From a virus (lineage: Duplodnaviria > Caudoviricetes): DNA of 36,061 bases. The stretch is taken from positions 1 to 36,061 of the IMG/VR virus record IMGVR_UViG_3300009183_002303; one strand, 5' to 3'. Positions 3-30,091 of this stretch are shown here, piece by piece. The position numbers were made by a program, and so were the translations under genes. The notes under the pieces are model-generated. The model saw only the letters and a program-made list of their open reading frames with translations. It did no database searches and was not told the origin of the DNA. The stretch's first letter is position 1, and each line of letters begins with the position of its first letter.

Positions 3-812
3 GCATTCAACCGTCACACAACTCTGTTCGCAGAATATGTGGCCAAGTTGGTAAGTGGTGATAAGACTGTTAAGGTTAACGCCAACGCAATCTTCCCACA
101 TGATGTGCTGAAGGGAATCGCTCACAGCTACACCAAGCTGGACAAGACAGAAACTGACCATGTGATTGCACAATGGGACGCTCTGCCTAACTACGTAGGT
201 GACGCAAGTATTCTACCTCTAGTTGACGTATCAGGTTCTATGACTACCCCAACAGGTGGTAAGGGCGATGTGCGTTGTTTGGACGTTGCAGTTAGCCTTG
301 GCTTGTACTTGGCAGATAAGAACAAGGGTGCGTTCAAGGACACATTCTTGACTTTCTCCAGCAAGCCAGAACTTGTAACCCTAAAGGGTAACATTGTTCA
401 AAAGGTGGAACAAATGTCTAAGAGCAACTGGGAAATGAGCACTAACTTGCATGCCGCTATGGACAAGATCCTAAGCGTTGCAGTTAAGGGTTCTGTACCA
501 GCTAGCGACATGCCAGCCATGTTGTTAATCTTGTCAGACATGCAGTTTGACCAATGCGCCCGTTACGACGACAGCGCAATGCAAATGATCGAACGCAAGT
601 TCGCAGATGCAGGTTACACTGTGCCGCAGATTGTTTTCTGGAACCTAAACAGTACCGGTAACGTGCCTGTGGCGGCTGACAAGAGTGGTGCCGCATTGGT
701 AAGTGGATTTAGCCCATCAATCATGACTAGCTTGCTAGCCGCTGATATGGATCAATTCACTCCAGAAGGCATCATGCTCAAGACTGTAATGAGTGATCGT
801 TACGCTCTGTAA
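3..812 (+). CDS. DUF2828-family (Ro60/TROVE-related) vWA-domain protein, 5' truncated by the window edge
   Basis: Frame is open from base 3. MIDAS-like DVSGSM, plus VAVSLGLY, FLTFSSKP, ILSDMQFD, IVFWNL and LVSGFSP motifs typical of DUF2828 proteins. Confidence 0.75.
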   Translation, partial: AFNRHTTLFAEYVAKLVSGDKTVKVNANAIFPHDVLKGIAHSYTKLDKTETDHVIAQWDALPNYVGDASILPLVDVSGSMTTPTGGKGDVRCLDVAVSLGLYLADKNKGAFKDTFLTFSSKPELVTLKGNIVQKVEQMSKSNWEMSTNLHAAMDKILSVAVKGSVPASDMPAMLLILSDMQFDQCARYDDSAMQMIERKFADAGYTVPQIVFWNLNSTGNVPVAADKSGAALVSGFSPSIMTSLLAADMDQFTPEGIMLKTVMSDRYAL

Positions 813-1037: not shown

Positions 1038-1280
1038 ATGAGAGAATTTGAGAGTATCCAAGGTGACAACTTAGAAGAAAGCGATATGGCTCAATTGTTG
1101 TCAGTAACAGCAAATGCTGATGCTGTAGCAAGAGTACGTGCCGCTATCCCAAAAGGACCTAGTTTAAGTCATTGTAACGAATGCGGAGAAGAGATCCCCG
1201 TAGCTCGCCAAAAAGCAGTAGCAGGATGTACTATGTGTATCGATTGTCAGCAGTATGCAGAAAGAATGAAACGTGCCTAA
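1038..1280 (+). CDS. TraR/DksA C4-type zinc-finger protein
   Basis: CNECGEEIPVARQKAVAGCTMCIDCQ motif; AGGAG RBS upstream. Confidence 0.85.
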   Translation: MREFESIQGDNLEESDMAQLLSVTANADAVARVRAAIPKGPSLSHCNECGEEIPVARQKAVAGCTMCIDCQQYAERMKRA

Positions 1281-26318: not shown

Positions 26319-27093
26319 TTTTTATTTTATTCTTAAATTCTTCAGTAAACACCCCGTCAATGCGTACAGCGTATGCCGGCTCCGGAATAGGATCGCCACC
26401 ATGTGTGTCCTTGTCGTTCCACCATCCTACACGGGACTCTATGTAAAATCGTTCTTTGGTTTCTGCATTGTAAACGTAAAACGGACGCTTTGTATTGACC
26501 CTGACGTGTATAAATTCTGAATCAGTATTTGATTCAGGGTCTGCTAAATTGTCTCTATGTTCAAATGAAATTCCAAACGAATCAACAGATACTATGTAGG
26601 CCCTGCCCACGTGTGTAAATATTCCAGCCGTTACTAGACTTTCTATCCATGCCAGTAGCGAAGGAAAATATTCTGCAATTTCGTTTGGTGGACGTTTTTT
26701 AGGATCAGCTTTCCAACCAGGAACGCCATCCCAGAAATTATAAACAGTATAGTGGTCGTGAGCACCGTAAGCATATTTCATAAATTCAACAAATGCGTGA
26801 TTGTCCTGATCGCGAATGGCCAATCCTGTTTGCTTTAACGGATCGTCGTCTGGCAATGCCATAAATTCTTCATACGCATGAAACATCGGTTTAACTTTGT
26901 CAAACACATAGCTACGCTGTTCGTCTACGATTGGATTTCTAAATTGTCCACGTATTGTTAATTTTTTAGACAATGCCATACCTTTCAGTATATCAAGTTG
27001 AATAGCATCAAACGTTGTTAAGTCAATAAGATGTTCTAATTCAAAATGTGTTTGTCCGTAAGACCCAATCATTCCAGGTTTAACTGCCGGCAT
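26311..27093 (-). CDS. Fe(II)/2OG oxygenase-fold protein, paralogue of 13312-14118
   Basis: FEHRD...EFIHVR...WWND..THGG...YAVRIDG. Confidence 0.6.
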   Translation of the reverse strand: MPAVKPGMIGSYGQTHFELEHLIDLTTFDAIQLDILKGMALSKKLTIRGQFRNPIVDEQRSYVFDKVKPMFHAYEEFMALPDDDPLKQTGLAIRDQDNHAFVEFMKYAYGAHDHYTVYNFWDGVPGWKADPKKRPPNEIAEYFPSLLAWIESLVTAGIFTHVGRAYIVSVDSFGISFEHRDNLADPESNTDSEFIHVRVNTKRPFYVYNAETKERFYIESRVGWWNDKDTHGGDPIPEPAYAVRIDGVFTEEFKNKIKNV

Positions 27094-28055
27094 TATATTT
27101 TCCTTTTGGGTATTTTGCTATCTGCACTACTTACGCACATAGGAGTAATACATATTTTAGGTTCTTTGAATAATTCAAAACCTGTAAGGATATTTCCTAT
27201 ATTATTTTCCTTACAACTGTAAGCACGTTTAACTTCAGTACCTCTTATTATAACACTTTGATAGCCTGCATTGCAACCCCATCCTTGGAACTTATTAAAT
27301 CCTAATGCGTTAAATCTTTCTGCTTGATCGATGTAGTAATCTTTCTCTCCATCATTAAGTCTAATTTGAAAAACTTCTCGTTGTTCATATTCGTCCTGCA
27401 TAATTTTAATCATTTCAGGAGTGTATCCTTCTACAATAGCAGTAGCAGTATCATTGCTTTGTGGTTTGAGTGTTACATTAATCCCACGTTTGCGTAATCG
27501 TTCACAACGTTCTAGTGTTTCAAAAAACTTGGCTGGAACCATTACTTGATTGACAGTAACGTGTACTAGTTCGTACATTAACTGTAGACACTTGTCGCCA
27601 AACTCTTGCTCCTTGGCAAACTCATCATGAAAGCTGGCTGTAATACTTCTACGTTGTAACATCTCAGTGTTCTTACACCAAGTGTTCCACCATTTACTAC
27701 CAGGCGACAAATTAGTAGTCATGTGTATACTCTGGTAAGTACTTTCAAGTTCGTCTAGGTATTTTACCAATTCGGGTAATTGTTTATATGCTGTAGGTTC
27801 GCCACCACTAAAGCTCCAATGAAATCTATCAAAACCATTAGCTCGTGCCTGACGCTTAATTTCATCTATTGCAGACTTGTACACATCTAAAGTTTGGTAA
27901 TCTAATTTGTCGCTTCGGGCATATGGCCAACAATAGCTACAGTTATAGTTACAAAATCTACCCAGTATCCAACTTACGTTAAATAGTTTGGTATCCAACA
28001 TGGTTTGTTGTCCAAATTGGACTATATTTTGGAAAGGAATTTGGCTAAAGTTCAT
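27093..28055 (-). CDS. radical SAM protein, paralogue of 18524-19420
   Basis: CNYNCSYC; SGGEPT; TTNL; ASFH; CNAG...SC...GN...C....C. Confidence 0.85.
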   Translation of the reverse strand: MNFSQIPFQNIVQFGQQTMLDTKLFNVSWILGRFCNYNCSYCWPYARSDKLDYQTLDVYKSAIDEIKRQARANGFDRFHWSFSGGEPTAYKQLPELVKYLDELESTYQSIHMTTNLSPGSKWWNTWCKNTEMLQRRSITASFHDEFAKEQEFGDKCLQLMYELVHVTVNQVMVPAKFFETLERCERLRKRGINVTLKPQSNDTATAIVEGYTPEMIKIMQDEYEQREVFQIRLNDGEKDYYIDQAERFNALGFNKFQGWGCNAGYQSVIIRGTEVKRAYSCKENNIGNILTGFELFKEPKICITPMCVSSADSKIPKRKI

Positions 28056-28096: not shown

Positions 28097-28125
28097 TTGA
28101 CATGCTAGCCAAAAGACAGTATACT
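28097..28125 (+). promoter_or_regulatory. sigma70 promoter of the tRNA-like RNA
   Basis: TTGACA(28097-28102), 17-nt spacer, TATACT(28120-28125). Confidence 0.85.
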
Positions 28126-28131
28126 TACATT

Positions 28132-28249
28132 GTAGACGTGAGTGGAACATGGTATACCTCCTCCTAGTAAGCTGACCCCCAGCTGAACGGAGGGACAGGG
28201 CTTGTGACTTAGTCATGCTTTGCAGGTTCGAATCCTGCCGTCTACACCA
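28132..28249 (+). ncRNA. 118-nt tRNA-like RNA with non-canonical (sarcin-ricin-loop-like) anticodon arm
   Basis: Acceptor stem GTAGACG/CGTCTAC + A + CCA; T arm GCAGG-TTCGAAT-CCTGC; D-loop GGAA...TGGTA; long variable arm; no 7-nt anticodon loop. Confidence 0.8.
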
Positions 28250-28278
28250 TTTTTAACACAGGCACAGAAAGGCATTTT

Positions 28279-28581: not shown

Positions 28582-29120
28582 TGAAAAACGTAGCATCAAG
28601 TCCTGAACGACACACTTTCCAAAAGGAAGGCGCAATCCAACGGGCAGAAGAAGCGGGCGAAGAGCCCAATCAAGCCTACATTGACATGTGGGATCAAATC
28701 AAGATTGACGACGCCAACAAGATCCACGATCCAGCCTGGCAACGGAACAATATGGAGTATGATCTCCGTAGTAGTAAAGAACTGTGCGACAAAGTCAAAG
28801 CCAGCGATGCTTATGCTCAGAATTTGTATGCGGCTATGTGTAATATGACTTGGCAAAGTCGTGAGTTTTGGCAAGAGCTAAAAGGCGAAGTATGGAGTGC
28901 TAGTTGGCGCCATAGCGGTGGCATTGTTGCTGACATGCGTGAACAAGGTGACTACATTGATTGGTACTGTAGCGGTATTGGTAACGATGACTTGGGATAC
29001 GGATTAGATTCTAGACCAGCAACTGGCTATGTTCCAGAAGGGCAAGTAACAGAAGAAATTGAATTGGATTTGAATCGATTAGGTTGGCGGCCAGTTCCTT
29101 GGAATGATGATGAAGATTGA
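28581..29120 (+). CDS. hypothetical phage protein
   Basis: TAATG-coupled start; YAQNLYAAMCN...SWR.SGGIVA...DYIDWYCSG. Confidence 0.65.
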   Translation: MKNVASSPERHTFQKEGAIQRAEEAGEEPNQAYIDMWDQIKIDDANKIHDPAWQRNNMEYDLRSSKELCDKVKASDAYAQNLYAAMCNMTWQSREFWQELKGEVWSASWRHSGGIVADMREQGDYIDWYCSGIGNDDLGYGLDSRPATGYVPEGQVTEEIELDLNRLGWRPVPWNDDED

Positions 29121-29709
29121 TTTAGAACACTTACACTATTGGATGCAAGCCATTAGGCAAAGTCCAGATCCTATGCGAACCATGGATGCTTTTTGGTCTG
29201 GACAACTTAACAGCAAATCATGGCTCATACAAGCCCTGAGTATGCAATATTCAGTTAAAGATGATCCAGTCAGTATAGAAATACACGGCGGCTGGGTAGG
29301 TGTGTTGGCTAGCATGTTGTTTCAAAGTAAGATTCCTATCAAACGCATTTATAGTCTTGACATCGATCCCACCTGTGAGCCTATTGCTACCATGATGAAC
29401 AAGGGCGAAGAGATGCAAGGCAGGTTTCAGGCTAGTACCGGCGACATGTGCAATCTAATATCATTTGTTGATGTAGTGATCAATACCAGTTGCGAACATA
29501 TAACACAAGAACAATATGAAACATGGTTAAGCAAGCGCCAAGATAATCAGTTGTTAGTGTTGCAAAGTAATAATTATAATATAGACGAACATATTAGAAT
29601 TGCCAAGTCAGTTGACGAATTTGCAGAACAGTGTAAAATTAAAGTTAAATGGAGTGGAGAATTACAATTGCCGCTATACAAACGATTTATGATAATTGGA
29701 ACCAAATGA
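29104..29709 (+). CDS. class I SAM-dependent methyltransferase-like protein
   Basis: IHGGWVG (motif I), SLDIDP, DVVINTSCEH, LQSNN. Confidence 0.65.
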   Translation: MMMKIDLEHLHYWMQAIRQSPDPMRTMDAFWSGQLNSKSWLIQALSMQYSVKDDPVSIEIHGGWVGVLASMLFQSKIPIKRIYSLDIDPTCEPIATMMNKGEEMQGRFQASTGDMCNLISFVDVVINTSCEHITQEQYETWLSKRQDNQLLVLQSNNYNIDEHIRIAKSVDEFAEQCKIKVKWSGELQLPLYKRFMIIGTK

Positions 29710-29876
29710 CAACATTAACATTTACAGTTGAAGAACTTTTTGAAGATATTCCCGGGGATCCGGATAATGTTATTTTAAAACTTCCTCCAGAAATTTGCGA
29801 AGCACAAGGATGGGTAGAAGGTACTACTCTCAACATTCAAGTAGAAGATGGAAAAATGATTATTAGCAAAGTATGA
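29706..29876 (+). CDS. AbrB/MazE-like small DNA-binding protein
   Basis: ILKLPPEICEAQGWVEGTTLNIQVEDGKMII swapped-hairpin pattern; ATGA-coupled start. Confidence 0.65.
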   Translation: MTTLTFTVEELFEDIPGDPDNVILKLPPEICEAQGWVEGTTLNIQVEDGKMIISKV

Positions 29877-30091
29877 GTAAGGACGATTTACTGGAACTGA
29901 CTGGACAAGTCACTGAAGTATTACCGGGTAATATGTATAGGGTACAGCTAGATGATAACCAGCATATTATCCTAGCCTACTTGGGCGGCAGGCTAAAACA
30001 ACATAAAATTAAAATTATTTTGGGCGATAAGGTCCGGGTGGAAATAAGCACTTACGACTTATCAAAAGGTCGTGTAACATATAGGTTATAA
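29873..30091 (+). CDS. infA: translation initiation factor IF-1
   Basis: 72 aa, MSKDDLLELTGQVTEVLP...YRV.L...H.ILAYLGG...IKIILGDKVRVEISTYDLSKGRVTYR. Confidence 0.93.
   Translation: MSKDDLLELTGQVTEVLPGNMYRVQLDDNQHIILAYLGGRLKQHKIKIILGDKVRVEISTYDLSKGRVTYRL

What the first reader, a model, noticed from the sequence alone, without database searches (positions are those of the whole stretch)
28132..28249. tRNA body carrying a sarcin-ricin-loop mimic instead of an anticodon arm
Seen: perfect acceptor stem, A discriminator, encoded CCA, canonical T arm, Leu-like D loop and a long variable arm. The anticodon arm reads CCTCC-TAGTA-[AGCTG-ACCCC-CAGCT]-GAAC-GGAGG. Known (recalled): the E. coli 23S sarcin-ricin loop is CUCCUAGUA-CGAGAG-GACCGGAG with the AGUA/GA(A/C) bulged-G motif. 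Here CTCCTAGTA (28161-28169) is identical and GAACGGAG (28185-28192) matches 7 of 8, with the GAGA apex replaced by a 5-bp hairpin. Bacterial LeuRS largely ignores the anticodon. Inference: a chargeable but non-decoding tRNA-rRNA chimera. It could be a decoy for SRL- or tRNA-targeting defence toxins (it lacks the attacked GAGA), a modulator of EF-Tu/EF-G, or an aminoacyl donor for the adjacent enzyme island. Convergence on a common loop-E motif is the simpler alternative.
Basis: partly seen in the sequence, partly recalled or inferred. Interest (0 to 1): 0.88.

Follow-up and report, generated by a model that had tools for sequence, protein, structure and literature searches.

The report
Anticodon-less leucine tRNA of jumbo phages
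A group of uncultured giant bacterial viruses keeps a conserved tRNA-shaped RNA gene whose code-reading arm is replaced by assorted stable hairpins, so it is predicted not to read codons and likely carries leucine for a job outside the ribosome; the ribosomal-loop look-alike first noticed is only one of these interchangeable caps.

Summary
The element is real at 28132-28249; ARAGORN and Rfam miss it. It belongs to a conserved single-copy family of ~350-kb phages: 80 of 80 loci picked by a neighbouring protein carry it; 215 distinct sequences in all. Acceptor and T stems covary. A73 and the Leu-type D loop are kept. A sigma70 promoter points at nucleotide 1 (134 of 149; ordinary phage tRNAs 0 of 147; 25, 127). 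The weak EF-Tu pair A51-U63 is invariant (135 of 135; phage Leu tRNAs 0 of 14; 38, 44). The anticodon arm is free: 12-34 nt, many unrelated hairpins. Loop E occurs in 56 of 215, changes at least 14 times on a tree, and never carries the GAGA apex. So the SRL-mimic reading fails for the family, and splicing cannot restore a tRNA here. Best reading: a non-decoding, likely leucylated tRNA acting off the ribosome, most likely as a leucine donor (0.35). Rivals: decoy, or partner of a phage Ro60-fold protein. No function was tested. This scan had not noted this family.

The parts
28097..28125 (+). sigma70-type promoter TTGACA-17-TATACT; the -10 box ends 6 nt before nucleotide 1, so the predicted start site is nucleotide 1 (leaderless transcript)
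   Evidence: 11 of 12 consensus; same spacing in 134 of 149 and 83 of 111 distinct homologue upstream regions; 0 of 147 ordinary phage tRNA genes at 5-7 nt; start site itself is inferred
28132..28249 (+). whole anticodon-less tRNA-like RNA gene, 118 nt
   Evidence: (102.6 bits to family model R1)
28132..28138 (+). acceptor stem 5' strand (pairs with 28239-28245)
   Evidence: 6 of 7 pairs show two-sided changes in 71 sequences
28139..28159 (+). U8 G9, D arm with Leu-type loop (A14 A15, G18 G19, A20a) and a bulged pyrimidine at 28143
   Evidence: loop motif in 11 of 14 phage Leu tRNAs, 0 of 3 Tyr, 0 of 10 Ser; the three D-stem pairs never vary, so their pairing is inferred
28160..28193 (+). arm in place of the anticodon arm: CCTCC/GGAGG stem, loop-E-type internal loop (28165-28169, 28185-28188), 5-bp apical hairpin with ACCCC loop (28170-28184); one of many interchangeable caps in the family
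28194..28221 (+). 5-nt linker, long variable helix (8 bp with a 2-nt bulge and a triloop), U47 U48
   Evidence: span 21 or 23 nt in 118 of 135; sequence covaries; U48 215 of 215
28222..28238 (+). T arm with invariant A51-U63
   Evidence: A51-U63 in 135 of 135 sequences found without constraining that position, while pairs 49, 50, 52 vary
28239..28249 (+). acceptor 3' strand, discriminator A73, encoded CCA
   Evidence: A73 215 of 215, CCA encoded in 201 of 215
28250..28254 (+). U-run after CCA, candidate 3' processing or weak stop site
   Evidence: sequence; A/T-rich 3' flank in most members; role inferred
3..812 (+). context: C-terminal part of a Ro60-fold protein (DUF2828/DUF7788), candidate partner in one rival reading
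   Evidence: fold shown on the G004 homologue
27093..28055 (-). context: divergent radical SAM gene at the edge of the enzyme island; frequent but not obligatory neighbour
   Evidence: (77 of 100 and 17 of 29 loci)

Best explanation
This is a conserved phage RNA gene with a leucine-type tRNA body whose anticodon arm is replaced by a variable stable hairpin, and it likely works as a leucine carrier outside the ribosome. Step 1 (shown in sequence, about 0.9): a single-copy tRNA-Leu derivative under structural selection, with no anticodon. Step 2 (inferred, strong): host sigma70 RNA polymerase makes it early from its own promoter, starting at nucleotide 1, so RNase P would not be needed; the 3' end would be trimmed to CCA. 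Step 3 (inferred, about 0.7): host LeuRS would charge it, because A73, A14, A15-U48, G18 G19 and A20a are kept and bacterial LeuRS accepts tRNAs lacking the anticodon arm. Step 4 (inferred): the weak A51-U63 pair and an arm of 12-34 nt would keep it off EF-Tu and out of the decoding site. Step 5 (inferred, weakest): the leucyl-RNA would feed a ribosome-independent transferase, most simply the host L/F transferase upstream of the phage-encoded ClpS/ClpA/ClpP, or an unrecognised enzyme. Loop E would be just one way to cap the arm.
For: Conservation and covariation. Leu identity set; the best ordinary-tRNA hits of model R1 are Leu tRNAs (39.9, 38.2, 37.2 bits). E. coli and Aquifex LeuRS need A73 and the D/T core but not the anticodon arm (PMC9976931 passages; PMC2377443 abstract). 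A73 is kept even in the 14 of 215 members without encoded CCA. A51-U63 is the weakest tested 51-63 pair (+1.1 kcal/mol average, +1.4 in tRNA-Leu; PMC3239215 Table 2); predicted -9.4 to -9.6 against a mean of -10.5 for the 14 Leu tRNAs of these phages. S. aureus non-proteinogenic tRNA-Gly donors carry the same pair (PMC7826273). L/F transferase ignores anticodon and variable loop and competes poorly with EF-Tu (PMC4105747). ClpS in 4 of 5 phage records; ClpP, ClpA/B-type ATPase and peptide deformylase in G004. The phages have intact Leu tRNAs elsewhere, so this one is not needed for decoding.
Against: Nothing was assayed. No phage transferase was found: Aat, ATE/Bpt, FemAB-type GNAT and class Ia synthetase each 0 of 5 records; Pfam on 282 of 355 G004 ORFs showed none. 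The G3-C70 pair preferred by E. coli L/F transferase is in only 106 of 215, A4-U69 in 22. G3-U70, an alanine signal, is tolerated in 13 of 215, so the amino acid may not be strictly controlled. Variable-arm orientation matters to Aquifex LeuRS, and here the arm has a 5-nt linker and the D stem a bulge, which could block charging. The T stem also fits tRNA-Tyr (class mean -9.2; a Tyr tRNA scores 37.0 bits), so A51-U63 may be inherited rather than selected. The EF-Tu penalty is only about 1 kcal/mol. ClpS was not found in G005 (80% complete). The invariant D-stem sequence suggests a specific binding partner beyond LeuRS.
Confidence: 0.35

Rival explanations
1. Decoy: an abundant early tRNA look-alike that would soak up host enzymes attacking the tRNA elbow, acceptor end or aminoacyl group, while offering no anticodon loop to cut.
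For: Strong own promoter; where no island intervenes it sits behind RNA ligase, polynucleotide-kinase-like, phosphoesterase and phosphatase genes (L018), the known counter-kit against tRNA-cutting defences (PMC7824862 section 21); frequent arm swapping; a weak EF-Tu pair would also suit a decoy.
Against: Anticodon nucleases mostly read the anticodon stem-loop (recalled), which is missing; acceptor sequence varies freely; no target effector identified.
Confidence: 0.28
2. Y-RNA-like partner of the phage's Ro60-fold protein (DUF2828/DUF7788) in an RNA-repair or decay complex.
For: The protein has the Ro60 fold: all 13 PDB hits at E<=0.001 are Ro60 structures, TM 0.41-0.60, model pLDDT 93 (profile hits). 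The window encodes it. The RNA lies 86 nt behind the gene in L548 and within 3 kb in 9 of 80 loci. Phage Ro60 binds phage RNAs in Thermus phage phiLo (PMC12135203).
Against: Among 24 records holding both the RNA and the tRNA cluster, 13 lack the gene, 10 have it, 1 has it cut by the contig end (all records incomplete). The YrlA motif GNCGAA is in 0 of 215. Topology is that of a tRNA, not of YrlA.
Confidence: 0.15
3. Sarcin-ricin-loop mimic acting on EF-G/EF-Tu or SRL-cutting enzymes, perhaps as an extra role in the loop-E subset.
For: Sequence match to the E. coli SRL flanks is real; loop E is the commonest cap among the closest relatives (49 of 80); 4 of 135 sequences add a GNRA loop two pairs above it.
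Against: Absent from 159 of 215 members; 0 of 215 have the GAGA apex; the flanking stem exists without the loop in 48 of 104; at least 14 changes on a 65-row tree; loop E is a widespread RNA module (established knowledge).
Confidence: 0.05
4. Cis-acting tRNA-shaped 5' leader that stabilises or regulates the early mRNA that follows.
For: Starts at the predicted start site with no terminator before the next gene; RNA-library contigs run from it into downstream genes.
Against: Downstream genes differ wholly between two subfamilies (92 of 93 against 0 of 28 for the 182-aa gene); A73 and CCA are kept; in G007 it lies inside the tRNA cluster.
Confidence: 0.07
5. tRNA with a small intron in the anticodon loop that is spliced to a working tRNA.
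For: Hairpin inserts in phage Leu tRNAs were noted on other genomes of this scan (unchecked AI notes).
Against: No single deletion gives the window a canonical arm; 37 of 215 can reach one, with no shared anticodon; 27 of 135 arms are 16 nt or shorter, below the canonical 17; no joint skipping the arm in contigs of four RNA runs laid on the window.
Confidence: 0.01

Closest known systems
Bacterial tRNA-Leu (class II)
   Same: 7/5 acceptor branch, A73, A15-U48, G18 G19, A20a D loop, long variable arm
   Different: No anticodon loop, bulged D stem, longer kinked variable helix on a 5-nt linker, A51-U63, own promoter at nucleotide 1
Non-proteinogenic tRNA-Gly NP1-3 of Staphylococcus aureus (PMC7826273)
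   Same: Weak T stem with U50-A64 and A51-U63; precedent for a tRNA set aside as an off-ribosome aminoacyl donor
   Different: Those are cellular, Gly-specific and have a known Fem transferase; they are ordinary isoacceptors with an anticodon (recalled); here the anticodon is gone and no acceptor enzyme is known
Bacterial and phage Y RNAs, YrlA/Yrl (PMC4201824, PMC12135203)
   Same: tRNA-like D and T arms without decoding; encoded in phages near a Ro60-fold gene
   Different: No GNCGAA motif (0 of 215), 5'/3' ends form the acceptor stem with CCA, Ro60-fold gene often missing nearby
tmRNA tRNA-like domain
   Same: Acceptor and T arm without an anticodon arm; weak partial hits to the tmRNA model
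   Different: No tag frame, no fixed G3-U70 (13 of 215), full Leu-type D arm; these phages have a separate tmRNA
T4 RNA C and RNA D (species 1 and 2)
   Same: Stable small RNAs of a phage tRNA region; RNA C has a T arm
   Different: Model R1 does not hit them; no Leu-type D arm; inside the tRNA operon
23S rRNA sarcin-ricin loop / loop-E motif
   Same: AGUA/GAA-type internal loop on a CUCC/GGAG stem in 56 of 215 members
   Different: No GAGA tetraloop one pair above the motif; optional in the family
allo-tRNAs and 'E-loop tRNA1' (PMC5389517)
   Same: Irregular tRNAs, some charged but not used in translation
   Different: 8/4 or 9/3 branch and an anticodon; 'E-loop' there means extra loop, not loop E

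Membership tests
Decoding tRNA | 5-bp anticodon stem with 7-nt loop and U33 | tested here: not met
   1 of 215 loosely fits as is, window does not; ARAGORN and Rfam negative
Decoding tRNA | 7-bp acceptor, 5-bp T stem, NCCA | tested here: met
LeuRS substrate | A73, A14, A15-U48, G18 G19, A20a, T-loop core present | tested here: met
   (80 of 80 protein-selected loci); identity set
LeuRS substrate | Variable-arm orientation of tRNA-Leu | tested here: inconclusive
   two U before the T stem, first one able to pair in 114 of 135; 5' linker 4-5 nt in 126 of 135
LeuRS substrate | Actual leucylation | not testable with these tools
   needs an assay
TyrRS, SerRS or AlaRS substrate | Anticodon U35 (Tyr); G73 (Ser); G3-U70 (Ala) | tested here: not met
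   no anticodon; G73 0 of 215; G3-U70 13 of 215
Non-proteinogenic donor tRNA | T stem predicted weak for EF-Tu relative to its amino-acid class | tested here: met
   -9.4 to -9.6 against -10.5 (phage Leu) and -9.9 to -10.4 (bacterial Leu classes); holds only if the class is Leu
Non-proteinogenic donor tRNA | A transferase that uses it | tested here: inconclusive
   none in 5 phage records for four families; host enzyme not testable; assembly G006 that holds a phage-like copy has Aat
SRL mimic | Bulged-G motif conserved across the family | tested here: not met
   56 of 215
SRL mimic | GAGA tetraloop closed by one pair above the motif | tested here: not met
   0 of 215; reference
Y RNA (YrlA type) | 5' GNCGAA motif | tested here: not met
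   0 of 215
Y RNA (YrlA type) | Ro60 gene nearby | tested here: inconclusive
   Ro60-fold gene in 10 (plus 1 cut) of 24 informative records
tmRNA | Tag frame and G3-U70 | tested here: not met
Intron-containing tRNA | One excision restores a canonical arm with a shared anticodon | tested here: not met

The most novel reading that the evidence does not exclude
A virus-encoded tRNA that has shed its anticodon to become a dedicated leucine donor: made leaderless in the first minutes of infection, charged by host LeuRS, kept from EF-Tu, and used to tag proteins for the phage's own ClpS-ClpAP or to feed an unrecognised phage transferase.
Probability: 0.25. Interest if true: 0.9.

Novelty: new variant of a known kind. 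Interest (0 to 1): 0.74.

Why it matters
tRNA finders require an anticodon arm, so this gene is invisible in annotations although about 300 viral and about 460 metagenome stretches match its patterns (estimates). It is a natural experiment: the anticodon arm is free while the synthetase identity set, a weak EF-Tu pair and a leaderless promoter are fixed. That points to a tRNA with a purely non-translational job in phage infection. Donor, decoy and Ro60-partner readings each predict a different result in simple in vitro assays on a 96-118-nt transcript. It also shows that DUF2828/DUF7788 has the Ro60 fold.

Tried and rejected
ARAGORN on the window: 0 genes. Rfam at gathering and E-value thresholds: nothing meaningful. 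blastn against 50,697 GenBank phages: only T-arm fragments, no record covering 80%; tblastn of two neighbours found no close cultured relative. GTDB scan: 15 pattern matches, 13 chance, 2 real (L350/L352, an exact inverted duplicate on one 14-kb phage-like contig). Paralogues: none in G001-G005; the extra tmRNA-model hits are tmRNA ends and tRNAs. A first regex had a length slip and found nothing (fixed in 24). Expression: six lake RNA runs hold small shares; contigs cover the arm unspliced but also run through the promoter, so DNA or read-through is not excluded, and no silent-stretch control or DNA run was laid; two 82-nt contigs in two studies stop 2 nt before the end of CCA, a weak hint only. 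PHROGs on 50 unassigned ORFs showed no transferase. A 201-aa methyltransferase-like neighbour (29104-29709) stayed unassigned; the atlas did not answer for it. Literature: ten searches showed no description of this family; one search was swamped by the common word 'trove'. PMC10690425 lists 8,495 candidate RNAs from IMG/VR; four supplement files gave no match, but two zips and three other files could not be read, so an unnamed listing there is not excluded. Subscription journals are not covered.

Full report
Observation. The 118-nt element is at 28132-28249 as described. ARAGORN calls nothing in the window and Rfam has no match at gathering score or any meaningful E-value. A near-consensus sigma70 promoter ends 6 nt before the first base.

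Source. The window is a virus record. Relatives are IMG/VR contigs up to 356 kb with 27-41 tRNA-model hits each; G004 has 29 ARAGORN tRNAs, three intact Leu tRNAs among them, and a tmRNA. No close cultured relative was found. The host is not known; a proteobacterial host is my inference from gene content and from one phage-like contig in a Gammaproteobacteria assembly, which may be contamination.

The family. A structural filter found the RNA in 80 of 80, 42 of 119, 118 of 120 and 120 of 120 of these: 135 distinct sequences from the first three sets, 215 in all, 94-118 nt. It is single-copy in G001-G005. In 185,579 species genomes the only true matches were the phage-like contig. On 71 representatives, 6 of 7 acceptor pairs and 3 of 5 T-stem pairs change on both sides, 99.6% of cells pair, and 0 of 500 shuffles match this; the structure was derived from these sequences, so the slide control leans its way. 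The three D-stem pairs never vary, so their pairing around a bulged pyrimidine is inferred. The variable helix covaries and keeps its span (21 or 23 nt in 118 of 135; best of ten registers).

The arm is free. Its length runs from 12 to 34 nt, and 27 of 135 are shorter than a normal arm. Caps include UUCG, CUUG, GCAA, C-rich pentaloops and long irregular hairpins. Loop E is in 49 of 80 protein-selected loci, 21 of 118 and 11 of 120 pattern-selected loci, 56 of 215 distinct sequences, a total that enriches. None has the SRL GAGA apex. The CCTCC/GGAGG stem that supplies half of the rRNA match occurs in 104 members, 48 without loop E. On a quick tree of 65 distinct neighbour-gene sequences loop E changes at least 14 times; recombination between the gene and the RNA may add to that count and no shuffle control was printed. 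The SRL likeness is thus a generic motif on an older stem. Splicing is excluded for the window; 37 of 215 can be cut to a canonical arm, with no shared anticodon.

What is fixed. A73 is in 215 of 215, also in the 14 without encoded CCA; U48 in 215. The D-loop motif is in 80 of 80 protein-selected loci and marks Leu among these phages' tRNAs (11 of 14 Leu, 0 of 3 Tyr, 0 of 10 Ser, 1 of 6 Pro). These are the published LeuRS determinants, and anticodon-arm deletions stay chargeable (PMC9976931, passages; PMC2377443, abstract), while TyrRS needs U35. That the anticodon-less body is of a type whose synthetase ignores the anticodon is itself an argument that charging matters (inference). A51-U63 is in 135 of 135 sequences found without constraining it, while pairs 49, 50 and 52 vary; the metagenome pattern fixed this base and is not counted. 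It is the weakest EF-Tu pair tested (PMC3239215, Table 2). It occurs in 0 of 14 Leu tRNAs and 34 of 136 scored tRNAs of these phages (11 of 147 could not be parsed). Predicted affinity is about 1 kcal/mol weaker than their Leu tRNAs, similar to the gap reported for S. aureus donor tRNA-Gly (PMC7826273, passages), but it equals a normal Tyr value. The -10 box ends 6 nt before nucleotide 1 in 134 of 149 and 83 of 111 upstream regions, against 0 of 147 ordinary tRNA genes at 5-7 nt; nucleotide 1 is a purine in 214 of 215. A leaderless early transcript is predicted, not shown.

Neighbourhood. The divergent radical SAM gene is upstream in 77 of 100 and 17 of 29 loci of the two subfamilies; downstream genes differ wholly between them. 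Without the island the RNA follows RNA ligase, kinase-like, phosphoesterase and phosphatase genes (L018), or the DUF2828/DUF7788 gene directly (L548), or lies inside the tRNA cluster (G007). DUF2828/DUF7788 folds like Ro60. It is missing in 13 of 24 records that hold both the RNA and the tRNA cluster; all are incomplete and some may be one population. No Aat, ATE, FemAB-type or class Ia synthetase gene was found in 5 records, nor a transferase among 282 of 355 G004 ORFs scanned. ClpS is in 4 of 5, with ClpP, a ClpA/B ATPase and deformylase in G004.

Expression. Contigs of lake RNA libraries span the arm without a splice joint, but also cross the promoter, so they do not prove a discrete transcript.

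Mechanism. Shown: a conserved anticodon-less tRNA-Leu-type gene with its own promoter. Inferred: early leaderless synthesis, leucylation by host LeuRS (about 0.7), exclusion from EF-Tu and the ribosome. I commit to an off-ribosome leucine donor (0.35), most simply for host L/F transferase, which ignores anticodon and variable loop and competes poorly with EF-Tu (PMC4105747, passages); its preferred G3-C70 is in only 106 of 215 and G3-U70 is tolerated in 13, which counts against. Rivals: decoy 0.28, Ro60 partner 0.15, cis leader 0.07, SRL mimic 0.05, intron 0.01.

Novelty. Not in Rfam; not T4 RNA C or D; not YrlA (PMC4201824, passages; PMC12135203, passages); not an allo-tRNA (PMC5389517, passages and section 16; PMC7609411, outline only). 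Also seen without a description of it: PMC7824862 (passages, section 21), PMC13434031 (passages), PMC5370408 (passages), PMC10690425 (passages and four of its supplement files). Ten searches found no description; unread supplements and closed journals remain. tRNA look-alikes are a known kind, so I class it as a new variant; the family itself appears undescribed. Interest 0.74.

Noticed in passing
window 3-812 (+); G004 L334:2355-3764: DUF2828/DUF7788 (phrog_850 'RNA-binding protein') has the Ro60 fold: all 13 PDB hits at E<=0.001 are Ro60 structures; 4,587 relatives at E<=1e-10 among 50%-identity representatives.
   Followed up: yes
window 1038-1280 (+): 80-aa DksA/TraR-type zinc finger, a possible modulator of host RNA polymerase.
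   Followed up: no
window 4637-28055: Enzyme island: four TauD dioxygenases, ten radical SAM genes, two QueC-like genes and many unassigned ORFs in alternating orientation.
   Followed up: partly
window 29873-30091 (+): Translation initiation factor IF-1, kept about 1.2 kb behind the RNA in 84 of 92 subfamily-1 loci.
   Followed up: no
window 29104-29709 (+): 201-aa methyltransferase-like ORF with no Pfam or PHROG hit, near the RNA in both subfamilies (60 of 141 loci).
   Followed up: partly
G004 278207-278623 (-): ARAGORN calls a permuted tmRNA with a 28-residue tag; similar tmRNA ends in G001-G003.
   Followed up: no
L358:3108-3199, L361:3599-3690, G004 272895-272986: A conserved 92-nt tRNA called Ile(TAT) with a long variable arm and odd D loop in several of these phages.
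   Followed up: no
L358:7569-7646; G004 272730-272810: Leu(CAA) tRNAs with short or unstructured variable arms.
   Followed up: no
L350/L352 (G006 contig C437): Phage-like 14-kb contig in a bacterial species representative, built as an exact inverted duplicate; likely an assembly or amplification artefact.
   Followed up: partly
G004 (L329-L335): Large proteostasis and Fe-S set: ClpS, ClpP, ClpA/B, DnaK, DnaJ, Hsp20, GroES, peptide deformylase, IscU/IscA-like, heme oxygenase with bilin reductase.
   Followed up: no
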